From the NCBI GenBank assembly GCA_020631855.1, contig JACKGU010000001.1, positions 363,118-427,117 of the forward strand: a stretch of DNA of 64,000 nt. The letters run 5' to 3'. Below are positions 3,546-62,855 of this stretch, one piece after another. Under the pieces are notes generated by a model that was given only the letters and a program-made list of their open reading frames with translations, was not told the DNA's origin and searched no databases. The position numbers and the translations under genes are program-made. The DNA comes from Candidatus Nomurabacteria bacterium (GTDB lineage: Bacteria; Patescibacteriota; WWE3; UBA101185; UBA10185). Within the stretch, counting starts at the first letter, position 1, and every line of letters begins with the position of its first letter.

Positions 3546-4232
3546 ATGAGCCAAATAGAATTTTTTAATTTAACTAAACAATACGAAAATGGCTTTTACG
3601 CGGTCAAAGACGTGTCCTTCGCAGTATCTAAAGGTGAATTTGTATTTATAGTAGGATCTTCCGGAGCCGGTAAATCAACTCTGGTGAGATGTCTCATAAG
3701 AGAAGAGGAGCCTACGGCGGGGCAAATACTTTTTAACGGAAAAAACGTGATAGAAATACCTAAAAAAGAGCTACCGGAACTAAGAAGACAAATAGGTGTA
3801 GTTTTCCAGGACTTTAAAGTCTTGGATACAAGAAATGTTGCCGACAACGTAGCAGTTGCACTAGAGGTTGTAAACACACCTGCCGAAGTAAAAAACGAAA
3901 TAATACCAAACGTATTAAACATGGTAGGGCTTCAAGATAAATCTAATCTGTTTCCATACCAGCTTTCGGGAGGCGAAAAACAGCGCCTGTCTATTGCAAG
4001 GGCACTGGCGCACGAGCCTGATGTGCTAGTAGCAGACGAACCCACCGGCATGATAGACCCCAAAGCTACATGGGAAGTTATGGAAATTTTGGAAAAAATT
4101 AACACGCTGGGAACAACTATTTTAATGGCTACCCACGATCAAAGTATAGTGGATAAGTTGAGAAAACGGGTTGTCAGAATTGAAAAAGGCCAGATAGTTT
4201 CTGACGTAGAGAAAGGCAAATATGAAGAATAG
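3546..4232 (+). CDS. ftsE: cell division ABC transporter ATP-binding protein FtsE
   Basis: Walker A GSSGAGKST, ABC signature LSGGEKQR and Walker B LVADEPT are present, and the gene is fused in an operon with ftsX. Confidence 0.85.
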   Translation: MSQIEFFNLTKQYENGFYAVKDVSFAVSKGEFVFIVGSSGAGKSTLVRCLIREEEPTAGQILFNGKNVIEIPKKELPELRRQIGVVFQDFKVLDTRNVADNVAVALEVVNTPAEVKNEIIPNVLNMVGLQDKSNLFPYQLSGGEKQRLSIARALAHEPDVLVADEPTGMIDPKATWEVMEILEKINTLGTTILMATHDQSIVDKLRKRVVRIEKGQIVSDVEKGKYEE

Positions 4233-5091
4233 CTTTTACAAAAAAGAGAAACTGCTAATTGCAACAAACATAATATCTGTAACTATAACCTTTTTATTGC
4301 TTGGGGGGCTTGCCTTTGTAATAGCTTTCACACAAACAGGAATAAGAAAGCTTGAAGAACAAGCACAAATAACTATTTTTTTTGAAGATGCCTATCCTGA
4401 GTCATCAATACTCAACCTTGCAAACGAGCTAGAAAACGACCCTCAAGTAAGTAACGTGAACTACGTTTCAAAAGAAGAGGCCTATAGCATATTTACCGAT
4501 TTAAACAAGGACGAGCCTGTTCTTTTAGAATCAATAACTCCGGACATACTTCCGGCCAGCCTTGAGATAAAAACCAAAAAACTTGCCGATATGAACGATA
4601 TCTCAGAGAGACTATCGAACATGGATGGGGTTGAAGAAATAAAATTTTACAAAGATGTGATTGAACGCTTTACTTTTTGGACCAATGTTTCCTATGCTGT
4701 GGGAATAGCCCTCGTGTCATTGTTCTTGATAGTTTCGTATGCAATTATTCTCATAACGCTGCGCATAAACATAGGGTACATCGGCAAAGAACTTGAAATT
4801 CTAAAGCTAGTTGGTGCTTCAGATGCTTATATAAAAAATCCTCTAGTTAAGCAGGGGGTGAGTCTGGGATTAATTTCAGCATTTATTTCGGGAGCATTGC
4901 TACTTTCCTTTGCCCTGATCGTTCAATTTGCTCATCTTATTAACACAAACATTAAATTCGGCTTTATTCCTGAAATAGAAATAGCTTTGCCGATTTTCGC
5001 ACTAATTATAAATTTTGTACTTGTTGCTTCAGGTGCTGCACTAGGCTACATTGGTAGCGTTTCAGCAATTCAAAAATATATAAACCACTAA
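4222..5091 (+). CDS. ftsX: cell division permease FtsX
   Basis: TM1, a periplasmic domain and three C-terminal TM helices; it overlaps the ftsE stop. Confidence 0.75.
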   Translation: MKNSFYKKEKLLIATNIISVTITFLLLGGLAFVIAFTQTGIRKLEEQAQITIFFEDAYPESSILNLANELENDPQVSNVNYVSKEEAYSIFTDLNKDEPVLLESITPDILPASLEIKTKKLADMNDISERLSNMDGVEEIKFYKDVIERFTFWTNVSYAVGIALVSLFLIVSYAIILITLRINIGYIGKELEILKLVGASDAYIKNPLVKQGVSLGLISAFISGALLLSFALIVQFAHLINTNIKFGFIPEIEIALPIFALIINFVLVASGAALGYIGSVSAIQKYINH

Positions 5092-5093
5092 AA

Positions 5094-6305
5094 ATGAGGA
5101 TAACAAAAATACTACTATCGACAACTTTTCTTCTGGGCGCGCTATTTTTTATAGGAAAAACTTCTATTTTAGCGCAATTAGAAGAAGGGCCTATCTATGG
5201 AGCAACAGAGGGTGGCGACGATTTCGACAAAACAATGAAAGAGCTGGAAAAAAAGAAGCAGGAATATGAAAAGAAAATTAAAGACCTCCAGCAGGAAGAA
5301 AATTCTTTGCAGAAACAGATTGATACAGCAACCACACAAATATATTTAACACAAACTGAAATTAATATTAAACAACAAGAGATTGCAGAAACCGAAAAAG
5401 AGATACGGGAGTTAGGGGAAGATATAAGCGACCTTAAGAATAGAATAGCAAAGCTTAAGAAAACTATAGCGATACAACAAGATTACTTATCAGAGAGAAT
5501 GCGCGCAAGATATAAAACGGGAGAAAATTCATATGTAATAATGGTTTTTGGGTCAGATAAGTTCAATTCACTTTTACAAAAAACAAAATTCTTAAAAGTA
5601 ATGGAATACCAAGATAAAAAGCTTATTGCTGAAATGGACGCCACAAAAGCCGCCTACAACGACCAAAAAGATATTGCCGAAGACAAAAAGAAAGAAGCCG
5701 AAACACTACAAGATCAGCTGGAAAGGCAGCAAAACGAACTTGCAGCGGCCCGAGCGGAGCTTGACAGGCAAAAGGCAGATAAAGAAACTTTGCTCCGAGA
5801 AACTCAAAATGACGAGCAAAAATACCAATCCTTGCTCGCACAAGTAGAATCGGAAATGGCAGCCCTCAATATGGCTATAAACCTCCCTGAGGGGGGAGAA
5901 GAGGTGAAAAAAGGCGACATAATAGGTTTAATGGGAAATACGGGATGTTCCTCCGGACCGCACGTACATTTTGGCTTTATTAAAAACAGCAAAGCGGTCG
6001 ATCCTCTCCCCTACCTTAACGACGGCCATCTAAAGTGGCCTGTCAGTGACTGGCAGATAACCCAAGGGTTTGGCGCAAATTACTGGTTCTACATGAACAA
6101 CTTTGGGATTCCCGGACACGATGCTTTAGATATTGTCTCAAGAGGTCAGTGGTCAGGCGCGCCAATTAAGGCGGCCCGTGATGGAAAGTTACGCTATGCT
6201 CAAGATGCAAGAGTCTACTGCCCGTGGCTAAACAACTCCATCGGCAAGGGCGCGATTATTGACCACGGAGACGGAGAGAAAACTATCTACTGGCACCTGC
6301 AGTAA
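5094..6305 (+). CDS. coiled-coil M23 (LytM-type) peptidase, EnvC-like; M23 domain apparently circularly permuted
   Basis: N-terminal signal/TM and a long coiled coil (residues about 40-250). This is followed by GDIIGLMGNTGCSSGPHVHF...VDPLPYL (the C-terminal third of an M23 domain, with HxH), and only then by GHDALDI...(HxxxD)...GAIIDHGDGEKTIYWHLQ, which is the N-terminal two-thirds of the domain. Confidence 0.75.
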   Translation: MRITKILLSTTFLLGALFFIGKTSILAQLEEGPIYGATEGGDDFDKTMKELEKKKQEYEKKIKDLQQEENSLQKQIDTATTQIYLTQTEINIKQQEIAETEKEIRELGEDISDLKNRIAKLKKTIAIQQDYLSERMRARYKTGENSYVIMVFGSDKFNSLLQKTKFLKVMEYQDKKLIAEMDATKAAYNDQKDIAEDKKKEAETLQDQLERQQNELAAARAELDRQKADKETLLRETQNDEQKYQSLLAQVESEMAALNMAINLPEGGEEVKKGDIIGLMGNTGCSSGPHVHFGFIKNSKAVDPLPYLNDGHLKWPVSDWQITQGFGANYWFYMNNFGIPGHDALDIVSRGQWSGAPIKAARDGKLRYAQDARVYCPWLNNSIGKGAIIDHGDGEKTIYWHLQ

Positions 6306-21456: not shown

Positions 21457-21634
21457 AAGAAATAATCGAAAATAAGAGATTGATATAGGTGTTTAAAGGA
21501 GAAAATCTCAGATCTTTTGTGAAAAGGGCACTGCATTGAAAAACATAACAACAGTGTGTTAATATTCTGTACAGTTTTGAACACTCGGCCCGTACGTAAC
21601 AACTACACAAGGCCGCAAAAAACTTTACGAGCGG

Positions 21635-21709
21635 TCCCCTGTAGCTCAATGGTAGAGCGCCCGGCTGTTAACCGGTAGGTTGGTGGTTCGAGTCCACCCG
21701 GGGGAGCCA
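21635..21709 (+). tRNA. tRNA-Asn (anticodon GUU), CCA encoded
   Basis: U1-A72 acceptor (UCCCCUG/CGGGGGA), D-arm GCUC-AAUGGUA-GAGC, anticodon loop CUGUUAA, T-loop UUCGAGU, and a G discriminator followed by CCA. Confidence 0.8.
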
Positions 21710-22945
21710 AGTAGAATCAGTAGGCTCAGAAACACCATATTTAGCTGTGACAGCAACTAAATCCACTGGTTCTAACCGTCTATTTTTCACATATTCAGGA
21801 TTTTTACCCTCCTTGAATATCAAGAAGGGTTTTTCCAAGTCAATACACAGTTTTCTGTTATTAAGCATGAGGTTCTGACCAAGTAAAGATAAGATTTCTC
21901 TTTTAACAGTAAGTCCGCCATTTTCAAATCTCTCACGAACACTTGTAGCAAAGTTGAATACATCTTCAATCTTTTTGAGATATGCCTCTCTATTTTGTTC
22001 ATCTGCACTTAGTTCATCTTTAAGCTCGTCTCGTTTAGCTTTTACTTCAACTTTAATGTCTAGGTACTCTTCGCTAGAAATCTCATTATTCATACGCATG
22101 GTCAACAAATCTGCCAACTGCTTCTCTAGTCTTTTATATTCTTTTTGTTTTGATTCCAAGATTTGAAGAGAAGTTTCAGATTCGGTTTTACTCTTTTCAG
22201 TGAGGTATTTAACCGCCCAATCACGAAACTCAATTGGTATTTCGATTGATGACACCAACTCTATTATCTGCTCTTCTAAATCTAATAATGTTATAGATTT
22301 TTGCTTGCATTTAACGTGGGGTTTTCTTTTGGAACAATGATAGTAATCATATATGCCTATATTGCCCGTTTTAGGATAGTGCTTTTCCTTATGTGTTGCC
22401 GTTATAGCACACCCACATTCAGCACAATGTATCAGACCCGTATAAAGATGTACGTGTGTCTTTGGTTTTCGTTTAAGCTTTCTGCTCAGGATTTCTTGCA
22501 CCGAGTTAAATTCCTTTTTGGTCACCATTTTGGGGTGTTCACCTTTCCGTAACTGACCCTTATACCTAAAGTAACCATAATAAAAGGGGTTACTGAAAAT
22601 GTCATATAATCCTGATTTAGATATAGGTTTGCCACCAGATTTTTTTCTCTTAATAGAGCGGTAATTCCATTGGTTATTAGCAATTTCAAGTATTTCAGGA
22701 ACTGTATATGCTCCTGTAAGCATCAAATCCCACATTTTCCTTACCAAATCGAAGCGTTCTTGGTCTTTAATGATGGTGTTTTTACCTTTTTCCTTATACA
22801 TTGTGTTTAGATAACCCGCAGGAGCAACAGAAGGTAACCACCCTTTTTCAACTTTGGATTCTAGACCATCTGCAACTCTTTCCCCTTTTACATCATTCTC
22901 AAATTTAGCATTAAGCATGTTGTATTGGAGCATTAAGATTCCCAT
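21668..22945 (-). pseudogene. 5'-truncated large serine recombinase (lacks catalytic resolvase domain); C-terminal 14 codons antisense to tRNA-Asn
   Basis: It aligns with residues from about 150 onward of the intact recombinase at 60434..62047 (GWLPSVAPAGY vs LSPTPKYGY; FSNPFYYGYF vs FRDPFYYGVL). Zn-ribbon cysteines CAECGC...HC and a coiled coil are present. The resolvase domain and its catalytic serine (conserved RSxE/DQ context) are absent. Confidence 0.65.
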
Positions 22946-24755
22946 TGGCGTGGCTTCAATCGCCTTTTTAGTATCAATAGGATACGGGCTTCAAGATTTG
23001 GTAATTTCACGAGTAGCGCGATTAGACGAAATGCAACAAGCTGAAATCTACTCCCCTCCAGCAAGTAATACAAAAATAAACGACGAGTCAATAGCAAAAA
23101 TAGCAAATGTCCAAAATGTAGAAAAAGTTTTACCTCTTATTACTCTAGTAGCGAAAGTTAACTATAATAACTCAATTTCCGACATGGCGGTATACGCTGT
23201 AACAAGCGACTATCTTGAACAATCTGCAATAAAACCTGTTAAAGGAAAAATATTCGACAACGATTTAACAAGCTTTAATCTCACTGAAGAAGATGAAAAT
23301 AAAGAGGAAGTGGCCGGGGCATCGAGCTCCCGTCAAGGCGGTGAACAGGGTGGAGAAATTTCTGCATCTCAAAACAATAATCTTAATGAGGGTCTGACGA
23401 ATATTGAAGTCGGAAAAAGAATTACAGAAGCAGAAATTTCAATATTTCCTGAAACTTGGGTTAGAGTGAGAGAAAAACCTTCCTTAGACAGCAAAATTTT
23501 AGGCTACACTAAAAGACCCGAAGGAAAGCAAACAGGCTACGAGGTCTGGGGAAACTCCTACCCGGATAATATAAACGGAACAATACAGGCTGCTGACGGC
23601 AAGGTATACGGCAAATGGGTTGAATCAAAAGTATTTTTATGGGAAGAAAAAAATAACGGCTATATTCAAGTTATTGATGAGCAAGGAAGTCAAGTACAAA
23701 AAACAGGATTTATGGCCGAAGTTAATTTAGGATTGCAGCGTTATACTCTGGAAAGACAGCCCGAAGTACTTGCAGAGGCCGACACAAGGGCCGTAACTGA
23801 TTCTACGGAAACACAAACAGATTCGCAAATAACTACAGGCACCGGGCAGGCTGCGGCAGAAGATGCAACTACTTACGAGGATTTAAAATTTGACGGAACA
23901 GACTGGATACTAATAGAAGAAGGGAATAAGACTGAACAGATTGAGAGAGTACAAGTTTCCGAAAAGGCCACAAGAGAAGCAGTAGCTAATACTGCGATGT
24001 TAGATGTTTTGGGACTAACAGAGTCCGAGGCAATAGGAAAAGAAATAGAAGTTTCTTTTATTGTTACCGCATCATTATTAGAGCCGGGGGCGGCTAAAAT
24101 AGAGTCTGTACCAACTAAATATAAAATTATTGGGGTCGTACCCCAAAAAGATGCACCATATTTTTATGTACCTTTTATAGATATTAGAAGCCTGGGAGTA
24201 ATGAATTATTCACAAGCAAAAATAATTGTGCAGGATCAGCAAAGCCTTACAGATGTAAGGAAAAAGATTGAGGCGATGGGTTTTGAAACCACATCAGTTG
24301 TAGACACAGTAGAGCAAATAAATACACTTTTTGCGACACTTAGAAAAATGCTGGCGCTTGCAGGAACCGTGGCACTAAGCGTTGCCGCACTGGGGATGTT
24401 TAATACTCTAACTGTTTCTCTTTTGGAAAGAACCAGGGAAATAGGACTTATGAAAGCAATGGGAATGAAATCTTTTGAAGTTAAGGAGCTGTTTTTAACA
24501 GAATCTATGATAATGGGAGTTTTCGGAGGAATTATAGGCGTATCCTTAGGCGCACTCGCCGGAGAGTTACTTGGGTTTATCATTTCAATATTTTCTATTT
24601 CGAAAGGTTTGGGGTATATTGATGTAGCATCAATGCCCGTCGGATTTACGCTGTTTGTGCTTTCCCTTTCATTAATAGTTGGGACTCTAACAGGAATCTA
24701 TCCCGCCCGCAGAGCCACAAATATATCAGCACTTAACGCAATGAGGTACGAATAG
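22917..24755 (+). CDS. ABC transporter permease, FtsX/MacB-like with large extracytoplasmic domain
   Basis: N-terminal TM IPIGVASIAFLVSIGYG and a long periplasmic region. The C-terminus has 3 TM helices (LAGTVALSVAALGMFNTLTVSLLERTREIGLMKAMGM...). The start was moved to the internal Met, which overlaps the recombinase fragment by 29 nt. Confidence 0.65.
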   Translation: MLYWSIKIPIGVASIAFLVSIGYGLQDLVISRVARLDEMQQAEIYSPPASNTKINDESIAKIANVQNVEKVLPLITLVAKVNYNNSISDMAVYAVTSDYLEQSAIKPVKGKIFDNDLTSFNLTEEDENKEEVAGASSSRQGGEQGGEISASQNNNLNEGLTNIEVGKRITEAEISIFPETWVRVREKPSLDSKILGYTKRPEGKQTGYEVWGNSYPDNINGTIQAADGKVYGKWVESKVFLWEEKNNGYIQVIDEQGSQVQKTGFMAEVNLGLQRYTLERQPEVLAEADTRAVTDSTETQTDSQITTGTGQAAAEDATTYEDLKFDGTDWILIEEGNKTEQIERVQVSEKATREAVANTAMLDVLGLTESEAIGKEIEVSFIVTASLLEPGAAKIESVPTKYKIIGVVPQKDAPYFYVPFIDIRSLGVMNYSQAKIIVQDQQSLTDVRKKIEAMGFETTSVVDTVEQINTLFATLRKMLALAGTVALSVAALGMFNTLTVSLLERTREIGLMKAMGMKSFEVKELFLTESMIMGVFGGIIGVSLGALAGELLGFIISIFSISKGLGYIDVASMPVGFTLFVLSLSLIVGTLTGIYPARRATNISALNAMRYE

Positions 24756-26807: not shown

Positions 26808-26930
26808 TTTTATAATTTCGTTACTAAAACTACTTACATAAGCTAGTAGATGTGGTTTACCCAACATGTTGGGCTTTGCAACGCAAAGAAGGTACGGCAA
26901 ACCACTTGCGTAAGCTGGCAGTGTTTAATA
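26808..26930 (+). repeat. copy A of 120-nt intergenic repeat family
   Basis: TTTATAATTTCGTTACT...AAGCTAGTAGATG...CCCAACATGTTGGG (perfect 14-bp palindrome)...GCAAACCACTTGCGTAAGCTGG. It sits between the stop of 26942..28624 and the start of 25408..26775. Confidence 0.6.
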
Positions 26931-37884: not shown

Positions 37885-37943
37885 ACGGTCATTTTAACAG
37901 AATTACTCTAAAGATGCGAAAAACTACTTAAAGCAACTGAGAT

Positions 37944-38180
37944 TTATAATTTCGTTACTTAAACCTACTTACCCGAGCTAGTAGATGTAGTTTACCCAAC
38001 ATGTTGAGCTCTGCAAGGCAAAGAAATTACAGCAAACCACCTGCGTAAGCTGGTGATAGTTGATAATTTCGTTACTTAAACCTACTTACCCGAGCTAGTA
38101 GATGTAATTTACCCAACATGTTGAGCTCTGCAAGGCAAAGAAATTACAGTAAGCCACCTGCGTAAGCTGGTGGTAGTTGA
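37944..38180 (+). repeat. two tandem copies (period about 118 bp) of the 120-nt intergenic repeat family (copies B1, B2)
   Basis: 37944-38062 and 38064-38180 are about 95% identical to each other and about 80% identical to copy A. Confidence 0.7.
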
Positions 38181-38735: not shown

Positions 38736-38809
38736 TGGGGGATCGTCTAATGGTAGGACACTGCACTCTGGATGCAGGAATTGGGGTTCGAATCCCTGTC
38801 CCCCAGCCA
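38736..38809 (+). tRNA. tRNA-Gln (anticodon CUG), CCA encoded
   Basis: U1-A72 pair (UGGGGGA/UCCCCCA), the Gln hallmark; D-arm GUCU-AAUGGUA-GGAC; perfect anticodon stem CUGCA/UGCAG with loop CUCUGGA; T-loop UUCGAAU; ends GCCA, as in E. coli tRNA-Gln. Confidence 0.8.
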
Positions 38810-38867
38810 AGGAAAATATCCCTAAGCCTGAGAGGTTTGCGGATGTTTTTCTTTAACGGTTTAGACA

Positions 38868-39341
38868 TTAAAGTTCTCTAATTGCTATTGCTTGAAAAAC
38901 TGAACTTTCAGAATATCCCCATGTTTGGTAACCGTGAATTTCTACTTTTTTATCTATGTATTTTTCTAAATCATAAAAGTCCTTGCTATTAGGTCGTAAC
39001 ACTTGTATTTTATCAATATATAATGGCAATCCGGAAGCATTATTCATCAATAGATAGGGCTCCTCAAAATATATCCAGTACCAATAATCTCCCAACTCCA
39101 GCTCATCAGGAATATTTTCTTTTTTTAACGTGCCTTGTAAAAAAATTGGATTATCTTCCCCAGTAAATTCTATAACTCTATCTTGATCTTTTTCAACGTC
39201 CTTTGTAAAAGAGTCATTAACTACCGAGTATTCAATCTGCTTATTTATCTTTTTGATGGAATAAAAATAATAAGCAAATAAAATATTTATAAATAACGAA
39301 AGTGCTAATAAAGTAGATAAATATTTTTTAAACATAAACAT
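38868..39341 (-). CDS. hypothetical membrane-anchored protein
   Basis: 157 aa with an N-terminal TM helix. Confidence 0.45.
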   Translation of the reverse strand: MFMFKKYLSTLLALSLFINILFAYYFYSIKKINKQIEYSVVNDSFTKDVEKDQDRVIEFTGEDNPIFLQGTLKKENIPDELELGDYWYWIYFEEPYLLMNNASGLPLYIDKIQVLRPNSKDFYDLEKYIDKKVEIHGYQTWGYSESSVFQAIAIREL

Positions 39342-39434
39342 ATTTTACTACTTTATGGCAGTACGAAATAGCATATATGTGCAATTGACTTAAAAAATGG
39401 GTTTATATTTTTATAAGTACCAATTTGTGACCAT

Positions 39435-39512
39435 ACGGCCAGCCATATAGCCTTAAGAAACTACGTACAAGATAGAACTACCTTTTTGATGCTAGACCCA
39501 TATGCTCAGCCA
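39435..39512 (+). repeat. cassette-junction repeats J1a (39435-39478) and J1b core CTAGACCCATATGCTCAGCCA (39492-39512)
   Basis: J1a matches 44646-44687 (ACGGCCAGCCATATA...AGAAAC...ACA.GATAG). J1b matches the cores at 40455, 41168 and 43588. Confidence 0.55.
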
Positions 39513-39514
39513 GG

Positions 39515-39551
39515 AATTTGGCAATCAGCCTGAAGGGCTGGTTGCCAAATT
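39515..39551 (+). repeat. 16-bp near-perfect inverted repeat AATTTGGCAATCAGCC-tgaag-GGCTGGTTGCCAAATT
   Basis: 15 of 16 positions are complementary (one U-G in RNA); it lies between junction repeat J1b and the attR-like copy. Confidence 0.5.
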
Positions 39552-39640
39552 ACTTGTTGAGAGCGAAAGGATTCGAATGGCGCAGGCACGACGGTGCCGA
39601 GCCGAGGTCGGGCAAAAATTCAGCAGAATTTTATGCGTGA

Positions 39641-39661
39641 CCGAATCCCTGTCCCCCAGCC
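39641..39661 (+). repeat. exact 21-bp copy of tRNA-Gln 3' end (attR-like)
   Basis: Identical to 38789-38809. Confidence 0.7.
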
Positions 39662-39730
39662 AGGGTTTCTCCCTATAACAACAATCCCAAATATAGGCCA
39701 TCAGGTAATTCGAACTGATATAATGTTCTT

Positions 39731-49998: not shown

Positions 49999-51834
49999 AT
50001 GCAAAAAAATGCAAAAGTTCTTTCCATTATAATTTCTGTCACTTTAATTTTTAATTTTTTCCTTCAGCCAATGGCGGCTTTCGAACAAAATACCAGCTTG
50101 GCCGACTCCGACGCATCTTTTGCAGCAAACGTTCTTGGAGATAATGTTGGGAATGCCCTATCAAGCGCAGGAGATGTAAACGGGGACGGTTATGACGACT
50201 TTCTATTAGGCGTACGTTACGGCGGGGATATAGAGGCCGGCGCAGTTTATCTGATACTAGGAAAGGCAGAGGGCTGGGCTATGGGAGCAGATATAGACGA
50301 TGCAGACGCTTCTTTTGAAGGCGAAGAAGCTTACGACAACGCTGGATACTCAATCGCCGGCGCAGGAGATGTAAACAACGATGGTTATGACGATTTCTTA
50401 ATCGGTGCCCCAGATGCTGATTCCGGACTAGGTAAAACGTATCTGATTCTTGGTAAAGAAGAGGGTTGGGCTATGGAAACAAGCCTAGCTGACGCAGACG
50501 CTTCTTTTGTGGGAGAGTACGAATCTGATTACTCGGGCTCCTCAGTCTCCGGAGCAGGCGATGTAAACAACGATGGTTATGACGATTTCTTAATCGGTGT
50601 CTCAGATGCTGATTCCGGAATAGGTAAAACGTATCTGATTCTTGGTAAAGAAGAGGGTTGGGCTATGGAAACAAGCCTAGCTGACGCAGACGCTTCTTTT
50701 GTGGGAGAGTACGAATCTGATTACTCGGGCTTCTCAGTATCCGGAGCAGGTGATGTAAACAACGATGGTTATGACGATTTCTTAATCGGTGCCCCAGATG
50801 CTGACTCAGAAACAGGAGAAACATATCTGATTCTTGGTAAGGACGAAGGCTGGGCAGCAGAAACAAGCCTGGCTGATGCAGACGCTTCTTTTGTGGGAGA
50901 GTACGAATCTGATTACTCGGGCTTCTCAGTCTCCGGAGCAGGTGATGTAAACAACGATGGTTATGACGATTTCTTAATCGGTGCCCCAGATGCTGACTCA
51001 GAAACAGGAGAAATATATCTGATTCTTGGTAAAGAAGGGAGTTGGGCTATGGAAACAAGCCTAGCTGACGCAGACGCTTCTTTTGAAGGCGAAGAAGCTT
51101 ACGACAGCGCTGGATACTCAATCGCCGGCGCAGGAGATGTAAACGATGATGGCTATGATGATTTTCTATTAGGATCTCCGTGGTATAACGAAACAGAGGA
51201 CGCATACGAAGGAAAATCCTATTTAATACTGGGCAAAGAAGGGGGTTGGGCTATGGAAACAAGCCTGGCTGACGCAGACGCTTCTTTTATAGGAGAATAC
51301 ATATACGATTATTCAGGGCAAGCAGTCTCGGGTGCAGGAGATGTGAACGGGGATGGCGCAGATGACATACTTATAGGGGCTCCCGGAGATGGTGAAGATG
51401 AAAACCTATACGGAAGGGTGTATCTACTACTAGGCACTCCTTCGGAAGAGGATCCCTCCGAGGACATAATAACTAACGATAACAACAACCCCACCCCAAA
51501 AAACACATTCAAAAAAGATGCCAAATGCCGATGGCAAGATCCTAACGAACTCACGTGGGTTTTGCTAGAACCAATGGACAAAAACGGAGTGTCAGGAATC
51601 AATCTTACATGGGTACAGTATGGTGCCGATAAAATTAATATTAAAATAGACGACGGCACAGGCAGCTACCCCTGGAATATAACAGAAATTTCAAACGATG
51701 GGCAAGAGTTTCTTCCAAACGTATTTGCATGGCAAAATATAAAAGTGCAGGCGGTGAACCACTGTAACAAAGGTAAGTGGAGCCAAGAATTTTCTTACAC
51801 TTCCTATCCTGAGGGCTGGTATAACGTTAAGTAG
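49999..51834 (+). CDS. FG-GAP repeat (integrin-alpha-like 7-bladed beta-propeller) secreted protein with C-terminal beta-sandwich domain
   Basis: Signal peptide; seven repeats of GDVN(G/N)DGYDDFLIGAP...YLILGKEEGW...ADADASF. Confidence 0.75.
   Translation: MQKNAKVLSIIISVTLIFNFFLQPMAAFEQNTSLADSDASFAANVLGDNVGNALSSAGDVNGDGYDDFLLGVRYGGDIEAGAVYLILGKAEGWAMGADIDDADASFEGEEAYDNAGYSIAGAGDVNNDGYDDFLIGAPDADSGLGKTYLILGKEEGWAMETSLADADASFVGEYESDYSGSSVSGAGDVNNDGYDDFLIGVSDADSGIGKTYLILGKEEGWAMETSLADADASFVGEYESDYSGFSVSGAGDVNNDGYDDFLIGAPDADSETGETYLILGKDEGWAAETSLADADASFVGEYESDYSGFSVSGAGDVNNDGYDDFLIGAPDADSETGEIYLILGKEGSWAMETSLADADASFEGEEAYDSAGYSIAGAGDVNDDGYDDFLLGSPWYNETEDAYEGKSYLILGKEGGWAMETSLADADASFIGEYIYDYSGQAVSGAGDVNGDGADDILIGAPGDGEDENLYGRVYLLLGTPSEEDPSEDIITNDNNNPTPKNTFKKDAKCRWQDPNELTWVLLEPMDKNGVSGINLTWVQYGADKINIKIDDGTGSYPWNITEISNDGQEFLPNVFAWQNIKVQAVNHCNKGKWSQEFSYTSYPEGWYNVK
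50173..51400 (+). repeat. seven tandem 192-bp intragenic repeats (FG-GAP blades); units 2-5 nearly identical at nucleotide level
   Basis: GATGTAAAC recurs at 50173, 50368, 50560, 50752, 50944, 51136 and 51340. Units 50368-51135 are more than 90% identical. Confidence 0.7.
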
Positions 51835-60413: not shown

Positions 60414-60491
60414 CGGGGTATAGCTCAGCTTGGCTAGAGCGCACGATTCGGGTTCGTGAGGCCGCAGGTTCGAATCCTGCTACCCCGACCA
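60414..60491 (+). tRNA. tRNA-Pro (anticodon CGG), CCA encoded
   Basis: Acceptor CGGGGUA/UACCCCG, D-arm GCUC-AGCUUGGCUA-GAGC, anticodon stem CACGA/UCGUG with loop UUCGGGU, T-arm GCAGG-UUCGAAU-CCUGC, ends ACCA. Confidence 0.8.
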
Positions 60492-62047
60492 TTGGATTTT
60501 TCCCTCTGTTTGAATAGGGTGTTGAATGGTTCTTTTAGTTGGTATGAAAGGATTTCGTCATCTCCAACATCGATGTTCAAGAATATAAATCGGCAAATTG
60601 CATCTTTTACAGCAGGACCGCCGTTTTTTACTGCTACTGGAGCGTTTTTCGATAAGTTCAAGAATTGTTCCAAACTTATCTCCTCTACCTCTGATTTTTC
60701 CAGCTTTTCATTTAATTTCTCCATTTCCATTTCCAATTCCTCTTGTTGAATTGATAAATTCTCGATTTCCTGTTCACCAACTTTTCTAGCCGTCTTGTTT
60801 GTGGATGACTTCAATACAGATAAGGACAATTCCTTTATTTGAGTTTTAACAAAGTTCAGAGAACCTTGCGTGCTATGCAACAAGGTCCTTAACTCAGCCC
60901 TTCTTTTATCGCTTATCTGCTTGAGGCTTCCGTAATAAGCGTTGTACTCCTTTTCAGTAAAATTGAGACCATCATCAAGTAGTTCATATATAAAATCCAT
61001 TACGAACTTCATCCTGACTGATTTTTTGATACCATTTGGGTTTTCTTCAGTCTCTTGGTAGCGTAAACAGCTCTTGTTATCACACCTTGCATACAGATTC
61101 CTCGTCACTTTATTTCCACTTAAAGAAGGTGCGATATACATATTCCCACCACAAAAAGCACACTTAACAATTCCTTTTAATGGATAGAAAGCTAGTCTCT
61201 GTCTAGTCCTGTAGGGGGTCTGATGGACTCTGGATTGTTGCTGTATGCGAAAGAAATCAGCCTCTGCAACCGCAGGGACAAAGTCATAAATTTCTCTCAA
61301 GTCCACGCTTTGGTTAGCCTGTACCAAAACACCATAATAAAAAGGGTCTCTAAACATTTCAGAAAGTTTCTGAGGTGTCATCTTTGTTTTCCTCCTAGTC
61401 TTTTTTATTTCTCTAAAATATCCAAAGGAATTTATAGTTTCAGAAATTTCTTCGTGGGGCTTTCCCTCTAGCTTCATACTCCATGCAGTTTTAATGAGTT
61501 CGTGGTTATCACCATCTGGTCTGTATATGCCATCCTCATTTTTGTAACCGTATTTAGGTGTTGGTGATAGACCCTTTTTCAGGTTATCTCTTACTCCTCT
61601 TGTGACATCCACTGATAGCTTGTCAGAATACTGTTTAGATAACACAAATGCTATACCTAATAGCATTTTTCCACTAGGCGTGTTTTCGAAGTGATGAGTT
61701 ACAAATTTCAGATCTACTATAGATCCCTCATCCAACATGTTTATTATTTCTCCTCCCTCCTTCATATTCCTTGCTAGACGGTCTGGGTGCCACGATAATA
61801 TGCCATCGTACTCTTTTCTTTTTAACTTACGTAATACTTCAGTAAACTTTTCTCGTTTCCCTGGAGATTTTGCGGAACCTTCTTCCTTTATTATCTCTAC
61901 GACATTAAGACCCTTATACTTAGCGAATTTTTCACAGACATCTTTTTGTTGAGGAATCGATTTCAACTGACCCTCATTGTCCTCTCGGGATCTTCTTAAA
62001 TACATTACATATTTTAACTTTGTAATATCCAATTGCTCATCTATCAT
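60434..62047 (-). CDS. large serine recombinase (integrase), full length; last 19 codons antisense to tRNA-Pro
   Basis: N-terminal resolvase domain YLRRSREDNEGQLKSIPQQ (catalytic Ser), a recombinase domain, a Zn-ribbon (CAFCGG...CDNKSC) and a coiled coil. The stop codon TAG lies at tRNA-Pro nt 21-23 on the opposite strand. Confidence 0.85.
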   Translation of the reverse strand: MIDEQLDITKLKYVMYLRRSREDNEGQLKSIPQQKDVCEKFAKYKGLNVVEIIKEEGSAKSPGKREKFTEVLRKLKRKEYDGILSWHPDRLARNMKEGGEIINMLDEGSIVDLKFVTHHFENTPSGKMLLGIAFVLSKQYSDKLSVDVTRGVRDNLKKGLSPTPKYGYKNEDGIYRPDGDNHELIKTAWSMKLEGKPHEEISETINSFGYFREIKKTRRKTKMTPQKLSEMFRDPFYYGVLVQANQSVDLREIYDFVPAVAEADFFRIQQQSRVHQTPYRTRQRLAFYPLKGIVKCAFCGGNMYIAPSLSGNKVTRNLYARCDNKSCLRYQETEENPNGIKKSVRMKFVMDFIYELLDDGLNFTEKEYNAYYGSLKQISDKRRAELRTLLHSTQGSLNFVKTQIKELSLSVLKSSTNKTARKVGEQEIENLSIQQEELEMEMEKLNEKLEKSEVEEISLEQFLNLSKNAPVAVKNGGPAVKDAICRFIFLNIDVGDDEILSYQLKEPFNTLFKQREKSNGRGSRIRTCGLTNPNRAL

Positions 62048-62342
62048 CTATTTAATTATAAAGGTGCAGATTAAACTTATAAACTGTTCAAGACATTCCA
62101 CGCTAATACTTTAAAAGTTGATTCGACCTCCATTATTATCACTCATTGAGGTTGCATTTATAGGCATTAATAACTGTTCATCAATGTTAAGCAAATATTC
62201 AACTAAACCTATTAGGTTTTTAGTTTGATTATTTACGGGGACTTTAGTCTCCTTTTGCTTAACTTTTTTAGCCATATATCTTGTTCGTAAAACATGTAAT
62301 TTTTTAGGTTATGAGGGATGTAGTTACACATCCCCCACACAT

Positions 62343-62855
62343 TTATCCTCTTTGCCAATTTCTAAGCTTTTCTGGTAAATTCTGTCCCAAAAGAAACTTT
62401 AGTTTCGCTTGAGGGTCGTCTCTAAACATTTCCAGTTTTCTTTCAAAAAGCATGTTCTCATCGATTTCCATGTTATCCAGCTCCCTAAGAGCCTCTAACA
62501 TCTTCATTTTTAATTCTGGTTCACTTGTTTCTTCTAGTCCGTCTTCTAATAAGTCCTGTACCTTCGCTTTCTTTCTCATGACCTCTGTTTCTTGAGTAAC
62601 CAAATCAGTAAGTAATTGTCTGATTTGTCCCAATGTATAGCCTTCTGACTTCAATACATCGATCAGCTCGAGATAGTCCACCATTGCTTCTGGGTAGTAT
62701 CCAGTTGACCCTACGCCTCCTTCTGGAAGCTTTTTCCTCAACATTCTAGGTAAAAGACCTTCTTTTCTTGCGGATTCAATGCTAGTACTTATGTTCCTAT
62801 TTAATATCTCTTTTTCCATCTGAGTTCTTGTTAGGTATTTCATTGTTATCACCAC
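62343..62855 (-). CDS. MerR-family HTH transcriptional regulator (phage-type)
   Basis: KEGLLPRMLRKKLPEGGVGSTGYYPEAMVDYLELIDVLKSEGYTLGQIRQLL matches the MerR DNA-binding domain pattern (GLL.P.R..g..R.Y......L..I..L...G.sL.eI..LL). Confidence 0.5.
   Translation of the reverse strand: MVITMKYLTRTQMEKEILNRNISTSIESARKEGLLPRMLRKKLPEGGVGSTGYYPEAMVDYLELIDVLKSEGYTLGQIRQLLTDLVTQETEVMRKKAKVQDLLEDGLEETSEPELKMKMLEALRELDNMEIDENMLFERKLEMFRDDPQAKLKFLLGQNLPEKLRNWQRG

What the first reader, a model, noticed from the sequence alone, without database searches (positions are those of the whole stretch)
21635..22945. Truncated large serine recombinase abutting tRNA-Asn: remnant of an integrated element
ORF 21668..22945 aligns with the C-terminal about 390 residues of the intact recombinase at 60434..62047 (recombinase domain, Zn ribbon and coiled coil). 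It lacks the whole catalytic resolvase domain. Its last 14 codons and its stop are antisense to tRNA-Asn (from the anticodon loop to the 3' end). The 5' break coincides with the start of the FtsX/MacB-like permease gene (22917), which overlaps it by 29 nt. This looks like a decayed integration event whose deletion endpoint defines the current permease start.
Basis: partly seen in the sequence, partly recalled or inferred. Interest (0 to 1): 0.55.

Follow-up and report, generated by a model that had tools for sequence, protein, structure and literature searches.

The report
Dead serine integrase beside tRNA-Asn
This is the leftover end of a mobile element that once inserted at the 3' end of the tRNA-Asn gene of a tiny CPR bacterium; one later rearrangement, most simply a deletion, cut off the integrase's catalytic domain, the rest of the element and the start of a neighbouring transporter gene, an ordinary kind of scar that nevertheless exposes an apparently undescribed group of integrases that target tRNA genes.

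Summary
ORF 21668..22945 (-) is a large serine recombinase (LSR) that keeps the Recombinase and zinc-ribbon domains but lacks the roughly 120-residue catalytic Resolvase domain. Its last 13 codons and its stop are antisense to tRNA-Asn(GTT).

Nearly all of the 120 closest homologues listed are about 540 aa with the catalytic domain. A syntenic relative (L001) has an intact 545-aa LSR at the same tRNA-Asn/DUF1189 site.

It lacks about 105-120 residues, including half of TM1, and the ABC ATPase gene that precedes it in relatives. One junction (22944-22957) therefore fuses two beheaded genes head to head. It is 100% identical in eight contigs from eight samples.

The tRNA overlap is a family trait. 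In 29 of 62 related genome loci a tRNA overlaps the LSR stop codon. A 93%-identical LSR pair differs only in a tRNA-antisense versus a non-tRNA C-terminal tail. So attP appears to lie inside the integrase ORF, with a short common core (TGGCTCCC here). No long attR repeat of the tRNA should be expected.

Verdict: an ordinary decay scar, sitting in an apparently undescribed tRNA-targeting LSR clade.

The parts
21635..21709 (+). tRNA-Asn(GTT), intact, with an encoded CCA. It was the integration target (attB side of the hybrid site).
   Evidence: ARAGORN; sequence. A promoter-like site lies at 21536-21565 upstream, a consensus match only.
21702..21709 (.). 8-nt common core GGGAGCCA (+), which is TGGCTCCC on the integrase strand. 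The window sequence (tRNA side) diverges at this point from the attP-like junctions in L002 and L014. The crossover is inferred to lie within or beside it.
   Evidence: L014 is 100% identical to the window from 30918 down to 21702 and then diverges. L002 (62%-identical LSR, no tRNA) diverges at the same base.
21668..22945 (-). 5'-truncated large serine recombinase ORF (425 aa). It comprises the C-terminal part of helix alpha-E, the recombinase domain, the zinc ribbon with its coiled-coil region, and a tail. The whole catalytic Resolvase domain (about 120 aa) is absent. Homology continues upstream to about 22948-22957.
   Evidence: PDB matches are the A118 integrase C-terminal DNA-binding constructs 4KIS and 6DNW.
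21668..21709 (-). Last 13 codons (WLPRVDSNHQPTG) plus the TAA stop, read from the antisense of tRNA-Asn. All but the first 8 nt (the common core) are on the host side of the junction.
22481..22747 (-). Recombinase domain (PF07508), residues 67-155.
22253..22447 (-). Zinc beta-ribbon domain (PF13408), residues 167-231. The two cysteines of the first CxxC pair are invariant in alignment A1.
22944..22957 (.). Rearrangement junction. Recombinase-derived sequence ends at or beyond 22948 (possibly 22957), and permease-derived sequence starts at or before 22947 (possibly 22944). That leaves 2-14 nt of ambiguous or microhomologous sequence. ATTGGCGTGGCTTC encodes IGVAS on the + strand and EATP(M) on the - strand.
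   Evidence: Alignments to homologues of both genes.
22917..24755 (+). 5'-truncated MacB/FtsX-type ABC permease ORF (612 aa from ATG 22917; real homology starts at 22944). It lacks about 105-120 N-terminal residues, including the first half of TM1. No partner ATPase gene lies upstream. The first 9 codons are antisense recombinase sequence.
60434..62047 (-). Intact 537-aa LSR of a different lineage (24% identity). Its last 58 nt are antisense to tRNA-Pro(CGG) at 60414..60491. It is a comparator showing the same integrated-state architecture.

Best explanation
An integrative element carrying a large serine recombinase (LSR) once integrated at the 3' end of tRNA-Asn(GTT) in an ancestor of this CPR (WWE3-labelled) bacterium.

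In this LSR clade attP lies inside the 3' end of the integrase ORF. After recombination at a short common core (here TGGCTCCC, the antisense of the tRNA's GGGAGCCA end), the integrase reading frame runs out of the element into the antisense of the tRNA. It takes its last dozen codons and its stop from there.

Later a single illegitimate rearrangement, most simply a deletion with its junction at 22944-22957, removed five things:
- codons 1 to about 120 of the integrase (the whole catalytic Resolvase domain with the serine nucleophile);
- the remainder of the element, including its far attachment site;
- any chromosomal DNA in between;
- the ABC ATPase gene;
- the first 105-120 codons of a MacB/FtsX-type permease.

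What remains is a hybrid att site next to an intact tRNA and two head-to-head 5'-truncated ORFs overlapping by 29 nt. The element is immobilised: it has no catalytic domain and no second att site. Both ORFs are most likely young pseudogenes. The scar is fixed in the sampled population.

Shown: the domain content, the truncation of both genes, the synteny with an intact copy, the core position, and the clade-wide tRNA overlap. Inferred: the order of events, deletion rather than another rearrangement, and loss of function of both ORFs.
For: - Domains: the remnant has PF07508 and PF13408 but no PF00239, whereas the intact paralogue has all three.
- Homologues: about 113 of the 120 listed are roughly 530-600 aa with PF00239. 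The closest full-length ones are 58-62% identical and extend about 120 residues further at the N-terminus.
- Synteny: L001 has the order Suf operon, large protein, DUF1189, tRNA-Asn, then an intact 545-aa LSR (59% identical). L020 has LSR, tRNA-Asn, DUF1189.
- Permease: all 119 homologues have at least 14 more N-terminal residues, and nearly all about 90 or more. The alignment places the window's first homologous residue in the middle of TM1. In L015 and L016 an ABC_tran gene sits immediately upstream of the permease; the window has none there. The window's only similar ATPase belongs to an FtsEX-PcsB division operon.
- The missing N-terminal parts are not elsewhere in the 64-kb window.
- Core: L014 and L002 diverge from the tRNA path exactly after TGGCTCCC.
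- Clade trait: 48 of the 120 homologue tails read as tRNA T-arm antisense and 14 more stop just after W-L. In 29 of 62 GTDB loci a tRNA overlaps the LSR stop by 10-76 nt, 13 of them tRNA-Asn.
- Tail swap: P0095 (tail antisense to tRNA-Gln) and P0083 (no tRNA, longer conserved tail) are 93% identical and diverge at the junction.
- Reality of the junction: it is 100% identical in eight contigs from eight samples.
- Literature: short cores of 5-8 bp are typical for serine integrases (PMC8092301).
Against: - No close relative with an intact permease or an empty tRNA-Asn site was found. The best permease homologue is 54% identical, so the ancestral order tRNA-Asn ... ATPase-permease, and the size of the deletion, are not reconstructed.
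- The rest of the genome (a 629,590-bp contig in NCBI) could not be scanned. An inversion or translocation that placed the missing halves elsewhere is therefore not excluded.
- Both truncated ORFs are still uninterrupted (425 and 612 codons). That fits a recent event but also fits retained function.
- L014 shows the same remnant joined at the core to a non-tRNA arm. The simple story does not predict this.
Confidence: 0.8

Rival explanations
1. Domesticated catalytically dead integrase. The remnant is expressed as a DNA-binding protein (recombinase domain, zinc ribbon and coiled coil, equivalent to the A118 C-terminal construct). It would occupy tRNA-Asn-type att half-sites or trap incoming integrase subunits, protecting the essential tRNA-Asn locus from re-integration by related elements.
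For: - The ORF is intact over 425 codons and the first CxxC cysteine pair of the zinc ribbon is invariant in alignment A1.
- It covers the region of the A118 integrase DNA-binding constructs 4KIS and 6DNW.
- It is fixed and identical in many samples.
- The tRNA-Asn/DUF1189 site is used repeatedly by related LSR elements (L001, L020).
Against: - There is no sequence variation among the available copies, so selection cannot be tested.
- No promoter-like site lies near the junction, and the would-be promoter region is permease coding sequence.
- The other homologues without a Resolvase domain are scattered and unrelated to one another.
- The neighbouring permease is also an intact ORF despite obvious truncation, which argues that intactness simply reflects a recent event.
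Confidence: 0.1
2. Rearrangement other than deletion. An inversion or translocation with breakpoints in the integrase and the permease would leave the catalytic-domain fragment, the rest of the element, the ATPase gene and the permease 5' end intact elsewhere in the chromosome.
For: - A head-to-head fusion of two 5'-truncated genes is also what one end of an inversion looks like.
- The genome outside the 64-kb window was not searchable.
- L014 shows that this remnant's att arm can be found in another configuration.
Against: - Neither missing half is found in the 64-kb window.
- The Mrr-type gene on the far side of L014 has no hit above 78% identity in the database that holds this species' MAG proteins. 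That arm is therefore apparently not in the window-type genome.
Confidence: 0.08
3. Naturally split or short recombinase: the protein starts here by design and works with a separately encoded catalytic subunit.
For: A few homologues lack PF00239: P0044, P0052, P0072 and P0078 (394-474 aa).
Against: - Those are only 38-43% identical, scattered among full-length relatives, and mostly on short contigs.
- There is no stand-alone Resolvase ORF in the window; tblastn with five N-terminal domains hits only the intact LSR at 60434..62047.
- The break falls inside helix alpha-E, not at a domain boundary.
- The opposite side of the break is an equally truncated permease.
Confidence: 0.02

Closest known systems
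Phage-type large serine integrases (Listeria A118/LI integrase, phiC31, Bxb1)
   Same: - The domain order is Resolvase, recombinase domain, zinc ribbon with coiled coil, seen in full-length homologues and in the window's intact copy.
- The remnant matches the A118 C-terminal DNA-binding constructs 4KIS and 6DNW.
- The common core between att sites is short, 8 nt here against 5-8 bp reported for Int-S systems (PMC8092301).
   Different: - The remnant lacks the catalytic domain.
- Identity to phage LSRs in the INPHARED collection is below 28%.
- The clade targets tRNA 3' ends, which serine integrases were described as rarely or never doing (PMC7192596: 14 of 297, 'not reported previously').
- attP lies inside the integrase ORF, so integration changes the protein's C-terminus.
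Integrase pseudogenes and genomic-island remnants next to tRNA genes (classically tyrosine-integrase islands)
   Same: A decayed integrase abuts the 3' end of an intact tRNA gene. The element is immobilised by an internal deletion, and the scar is fixed in the population.
   Different: The enzyme is a serine recombinase, not a tyrosine recombinase. There is no long direct repeat of the tRNA 3' part. The same event also truncated a host transporter operon.
SSV1-type archaeal integrases (attP inside the integrase ORF; from my own knowledge)
   Same: The attachment site lies within the integrase coding sequence and the target is a tRNA gene. Integration therefore alters the integrase gene.
   Different: SSV-type enzymes are tyrosine recombinases, and their gene is split into two separated parts on integration. 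Here only the last 12 to about 35 codons are exchanged and the ORF stays continuous.
Integration-dependent immunity of mycobacteriophages (attP inside the repressor gene; PMC8092301 and my own knowledge of Broussard et al. 2013)
   Same: Integration changes the C-terminus of a phage protein because attP is intragenic. The free and integrated forms of the protein differ only in their tails.
   Different: There the gene is the repressor and the integrase is a tyrosine recombinase. Here the gene whose tail changes is the serine integrase itself, and no functional consequence has been shown.

Membership tests
Large serine recombinase (serine integrase) | N-terminal catalytic Resolvase domain (PF00239) with the serine nucleophile | tested here: not met
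   Absent from ORF 21668..22945. The alignment starts at about residue 120-126 of full-length homologues. No fragment of it lies upstream in any frame or elsewhere in the window. The remnant is therefore a derivative of an LSR, not a functional one.
Large serine recombinase (serine integrase) | Recombinase domain (PF07508) followed by a zinc beta-ribbon (PF13408) | tested here: met
   E=4.3e-8 and 1.5e-10, both above the gathering scores. The two cysteines of the first CxxC pair are invariant in alignment A1. PDB hits are 4KIS and 6DNW.
Large serine recombinase (serine integrase) | Coiled-coil motif inserted in the zinc-ribbon domain | tested here: inconclusive
   Residues of about 250-340 align with homologues and are rich in E, K and L. 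No coiled-coil predictor or structure model was run.
Large serine recombinase (serine integrase) | Short common core at the att sites, with no long direct repeats | tested here: met
   An 8-nt core, TGGCTCCC, is defined by divergence of the window (tRNA arm) from L014 and L002 (non-tRNA arms). The window has no repeat of the tRNA 3' part.
Large serine recombinase (serine integrase) | Catalysis of attP x attB recombination | not testable with these tools
   This needs an in vitro or in vivo assay with a full-length relative such as P0005 or P0002.
Integrated genetic element at a tRNA gene | Integrase gene at the element edge, abutting the tRNA 3' end | tested here: met
   The same arrangement with an intact LSR occurs at the syntenic site in L001 and L020.
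Integrated genetic element at a tRNA gene | A second attachment site and cargo genes delimiting the element | tested here: not met
   Directly after the integrase break comes a truncated host-type permease, then peptidase M3 and FBP aldolase genes. There are no cargo genes and no second core with a P' arm in the window. Only a remnant is left.
Integrated genetic element at a tRNA gene | An empty site (attB) in a related genome | tested here: inconclusive
   No relative with an unoccupied tRNA-Asn/DUF1189 site was retrieved. The two relatives found are both occupied.
MacB/FtsX-type ABC transporter permease (the neighbouring gene) | N-terminal cytoplasmic segment plus a complete TM1 | tested here: not met
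   The Pfam MacB_PCD match starts at profile position 10. The homologue alignment shows that the segment ...IELSxxNMxxKxxRTxITIGGM and the 75-90 residues before it are missing.
MacB/FtsX-type ABC transporter permease (the neighbouring gene) | MacB periplasmic core domain and C-terminal FtsX domain | tested here: met
   PF12704 at E=3.2e-13 and PF02687 at E=5e-15.
MacB/FtsX-type ABC transporter permease (the neighbouring gene) | Cognate ABC ATPase gene directly upstream | tested here: not met
   It is present in L015 and L016. In the window the upstream sequence is the recombinase remnant.

The most novel reading that the evidence does not exclude
The remnant belongs to a large and, as far as I could find, undescribed clade of CPR/Patescibacteria serine integrases. 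They integrate into the 3' ends of tRNA genes (Asn, His, Gly, Asp, Ala, Gln, Pro and others) through an attP embedded in their own coding sequence. Integration replaces a conserved free-form C-terminal extension with a short peptide read from the antisense of the tRNA.

The enzyme made from the prophage therefore differs from the enzyme made from the free element. That could be a built-in switch for stability or directionality.

A further possibility is that this remnant's half-site is still used. L014 shows it joined at the core to a non-tRNA arm that carries a restriction endonuclease gene.
Probability: 0.4. Interest if true: 0.65.

Novelty: new variant of a known kind. Interest (0 to 1): 0.4.

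Why it matters
The scar itself has limited consequences.
- Two genes annotated in public MAG records as ordinary CDSs are most likely pseudogenes: a 'zinc ribbon domain-containing protein' and an 'ABC transporter permease'.
- This small genome has lost a MacB-type transporter.

The context matters more.
- Serine integrases were thought to avoid tRNA genes (PMC7192596). Here a whole clade in CPR bacteria uses them, with very short cores at conserved tRNA ends.
- These att sites can be predicted from sequence alone, which is useful for LSR tool discovery.
- The integrase's own C-terminus depends on the integration state. This suggests an unexplored regulatory principle for serine integrases.

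Tried and rejected
- **Repeat of the tRNA-Asn 3' part (attR).** None with up to 3 mismatches in 25 or 36 nt in the window. With an 8-nt core none is expected.
- **The missing halves elsewhere in the window.** tblastn with five LSR N-termini and six permease N-termini found only the other intact LSR.
- **Selection test on the remnant.** All retrieved copies are 99.98-100% identical, so dN/dS cannot be computed.
- **P0244 / L018 as a decayed allele.** Rejected: it is a chimeric 2-kb contig that fuses the remnant to an internal part of nusG at an A-rich stretch.
- **L014's far arm.** The Mrr-type fragment has no database hit above 78% identity, and the nearest hits are mostly Bacteroidota. It is not part of the known genome of this species. 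Two exact-pattern scans of JGI metagenome contigs returned nothing.
- **Walking to the far end of the intact element in L001.** There is no second TGGCTCCC and no permease within the 10 kb available. The tool does not allow a look-up of proteins from L001.
- **Ancestral junction from permease relatives.** The nearest is 54% identical and not syntenic on the tRNA side.
- **IMG/VR and INPHARED phages.** No close relative of the LSR; identity stays below 28%.
- **Inverted-repeat motif analysis of the att arms.** GGTGTTTC at -27..-20 has a 7/8 inverted match in the tRNA arm at +13 and a 6/8 match in L002's other arm at +18, but none in L014. Inconclusive, so not used.
- **Promoter scan.** Nothing above chance near the junction.
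- **Literature.** Five searches found no description of tRNA-targeting CPR serine integrases.

Full report
**1. What is there**

ORF 21668..22945 (-) encodes 425 aa. Pfam finds a Recombinase domain (residues 67-155) and a recombinase zinc ribbon (residues 167-231) but no Resolvase catalytic domain. The 537-aa ORF at 60434..62047 (-) has all three.

ARAGORN places tRNA-Asn(GTT) at 21635..21709 (+) and tRNA-Pro(CGG) at 60414..60491 (+). Both recombinase genes therefore end inside the antisense of a tRNA.

For the truncated gene the overlap is 42 nt. TGG (W) is antisense to the CCA end. The codons LPRVDSNHQPTG read back through the acceptor and T arms. The TAA stop is antisense to TTA at the anticodon.

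The two window recombinases are distant paralogues: 24% identity over about 180 residues, E=3e-8. The alignment does start at residue 126 of the intact protein, in helix alpha-E.

**2. It is a truncation, not a natural short form**

A search of 5.8 billion proteins gave 319 hits.
- Of the 120 listed, about 113 are roughly 530-600 aa and carry PF00239.
- The closest full-length ones (P0002, P0003, P0005; 58-62% identity) extend about 120 residues further at the N-terminus.
- The homologues without PF00239 are mutually unrelated and mostly on short contigs.
- tblastn with five N-terminal domains finds nothing in the window except the intact LSR at 60434.

By sequence the remnant covers the part of the A118 integrase crystallised as the DNA-binding C-terminal domain (4KIS, 6DNW).

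**3. A relative carries the intact state at the same site**

P0005 lies on a 233-kb contig (L001). Its order is Suf operon, a large protein, DUF1189, tRNA-Asn, then an intact 545-aa LSR whose end overlaps the tRNA.

The Suf genes (SufB 76% identical) and DUF1189 match the window genes at 11.4-21.5 kb in the same order. L020 also has LSR, tRNA-Asn and DUF1189. The tRNA-Asn/DUF1189 locus is thus a recurrent landing site for this LSR lineage, and the window holds a decayed occupant.

**4. The permease is beheaded too**

The + strand ORF is annotated in NCBI MAGs as a 612-aa 'ABC transporter permease' starting at 22917. It has MacB_PCD and FtsX domains, but the MacB_PCD match starts at profile position 10.
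- Its 119 listed homologues are mostly 660-720 aa.
- The alignment shows the window protein becoming homologous only at IGVASIAFLVSIGYGLQ (22944), in the middle of TM1. It lacks the conserved ...INRINLIELSxxNMxxKxxRTxITIGGM segment and the 75-90 residues before it.
- Every homologue has at least 14 more N-terminal residues.
- In the nearest relatives an ABC_tran ATPase gene sits immediately upstream (L015, L016).
- In the window that position is occupied by the recombinase remnant. The only similar ATPase in the window belongs to an FtsE/FtsX/PcsB-like division operon at 3546-6305.

A single junction therefore joins two 5'-truncated genes head to head. Recombinase homology reaches at least 22948 (...PMGILMLQ), possibly 22957 (EATPM against EANPM). 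Permease homology starts at 22947 or earlier, possibly 22944. The junction lies within 22944-22957, with 2-14 nt that could belong to either parent.

The most economical event is one deletion. It would have removed the integrase 5' third, the rest of the element with its far att site, the ATPase gene and the permease 5' end.

**5. The junction is real and fixed**

The 4.3-kb region is 100% identical in L006-L008 and L010-L013, and differs by one base in L009. These are contigs from different ENA and Logan samples. The same proteins occur in four NCBI MAG records labelled candidate division WWE3 or Nomurabacteria, on contigs of up to 629,590 bp.

Because there is no variation, selection on the remnant cannot be assessed. 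No promoter-like site lies near the junction (weak evidence).

**6. Why the gene ends inside the tRNA**

This is a property of the clade.
- Among the 120 closest homologues, 48 end in peptides that are the antisense reading of a tRNA T arm (...WLxxxDSNxxP...). A further 14 stop just after W-L, the antisense of CCA and the acceptor stem. About 20 carry a different, conserved tail (...DDVRTxxxKAxRAAALIYAHFKKEFG...).
- In 62 related loci from GTDB genomes, 29 have a tRNA gene on the opposite strand overlapping the LSR stop by 10-76 nt. Thirteen are tRNA-Asn; the others are His, Gly, Asp, Ala, Arg, Phe, Met, Val and Thr.
- P0095 and P0083 are 93% identical over 532 residues and diverge exactly at ...NVLGxLD|. 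P0095 continues into the antisense of tRNA-Gln, which overlaps its ORF by 61 nt (L099). P0083 has no tRNA nearby and carries the conserved long tail (L100).

The simplest reading is that attP lies inside the 3' end of the integrase ORF, and that integration into a tRNA 3' end exchanges the C-terminal tail.

**7. The core for the window's lineage**

P0002 (62% identical, 581 aa) occurs on four contigs, flanked on both sides by mobile-element genes and with no tRNA. Its DNA follows the window sequence through TGGCTCCC and then departs.

L014, from a JGI sample, is 100% identical to the window from 30918 to 21702, including the integrase-permease junction. It departs after the same TGGCTCCC into a sequence that ends in an Mrr-type restriction endonuclease gene.

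The common core is therefore the 8 nt GGGAGCCA at the tRNA 3' end. This is in line with the 5-8 bp cores of serine integrases (PMC8092301). It also explains why no tRNA-derived direct repeat exists in the window.

An attempt to find symmetric half-site motifs was inconclusive.

**8. What L014 means is unresolved**

The Mrr-type fragment has no database hit above 78% identity, and none from this species' MAGs. L014 is therefore not simply an inversion isomer of the window-type genome. Three possibilities remain:
- a strain that carries a tandem or second copy of the element, so that P'-core-P(remnant) is an internal junction;
- a site-specific rearrangement catalysed in trans;
- an assembly chimera through an identical integrase 3' end belonging to a living copy of the element.

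Chimeras do occur in these data. L018 fuses the remnant to nusG. In every case, though, L014 pins the junction to the same 8 nt.

**9. Comparison with what is known**

The protein is a derivative of a large serine integrase, and the scar is the usual fate of integrated elements. Two things are unusual.
- The clade targets tRNA genes. Mageeney et al. 2020 found only 14 of 297 serine-integrase elements at t(m)RNA genes and wrote that such use 'has not been reported previously' (PMC7192596).
- attP is intragenic, so integration alters the integrase's own C-terminus. The nearest analogies use tyrosine recombinases: SSV-type archaeal integrases (from my own knowledge) and integration-dependent immunity in mycobacteriophages (PMC8092301).

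Five literature searches found no description of this for CPR serine integrases. The library covers open-access papers only. Known phage LSRs are below 28% identical, and IMG/VR gave no relative.

**10. Verdict**

- the permease and its ATPase partner were casualties of the same event;
- a long attR repeat is not to be expected;
- the tRNA overlap reflects the integration chemistry of an apparently undescribed tRNA-targeting LSR clade.

The scar itself is ordinary; the clade is the interesting part.

Noticed in passing
window 60414-62855: An apparently intact 537-aa LSR (60434..62047, -) ends 58 nt inside the antisense of tRNA-Pro(CGG) (60414..60491). A MerR-like HTH gene (62343..62855, -) lies just upstream. 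This is probably an intact element of a different LSR lineage that runs past the window end.
   Followed up: partly
window 38736-39665: The 3' end of tRNA-Gln(CTG) (CGAATCCCTGTCCCCCAGCCA, 38789-38812) is repeated 853 nt downstream (39642-39665; 23 of 24 nt). It brackets a 157-aa ORF with no Pfam hit. It looks like an att pair or the remnant of a small tRNA-integrated element of the long-repeat (tyrosine-type) kind.
   Followed up: no
L014 9210-9730 (JGI 3300010350, 13.3-kb contig): This contig has the same truncated LSR-permease junction as the window. After TGGCTCCC, however, it continues into a non-tRNA arm and an Mrr_cat restriction endonuclease gene (best database hit 78%). It may be a tandem or second element, a rearrangement in trans, or a chimera.
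   Followed up: partly
L099 4680-4751 and L100 3985-4098: Two LSRs that are 93% identical differ only in the C-terminal tail. P0095 reads into the antisense of tRNA-Gln(TTG). P0083 carries a conserved tail of about 30 aa (..DDVRAYGHKAERAAALIYAHFKKEFG..) with no tRNA nearby. These look like the integrated and free forms of the same kind of element.
   Followed up: yes
L001 1-1425: The relative with the intact LSR at tRNA-Asn carries a second LSR about 8.5 kb away in the same orientation. Its tail (TWLYIAEDVRNCFV) is of the non-tRNA, attP type. It could be a second integrase inside the same element or a nested element.
   Followed up: no
L018 (ENA ERZ28655859, 2,020-bp scaffold): This is a chimeric contig. 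It is 1,626 nt identical to window 23947-22322 and is then fused at an A-rich stretch to an internal part of a nusG gene. It is a reminder that short contigs in these collections can be mis-joined.
   Followed up: yes
window 21668-24755 (public annotation): NCBI MAG records annotate the remnant as a 286-aa 'recombinase zinc beta ribbon domain-containing protein' and the truncated permease as a 612-aa 'ABC transporter permease'. In the source names I retrieved, neither is marked as a pseudogene.
   Followed up: partly
window 50165-51383: Six to seven tandem 192-nt repeats lie inside ORF 49999..51834. They encode a repeated GDVNGDGYDDF-like (FG-GAP/VCBS-type) motif.
   Followed up: no
window 37943-38176 and 26808-26924: A 117-nt unit is tandemly duplicated (96% identity). 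A third copy, 77% identical, lies 11 kb away.
   Followed up: no
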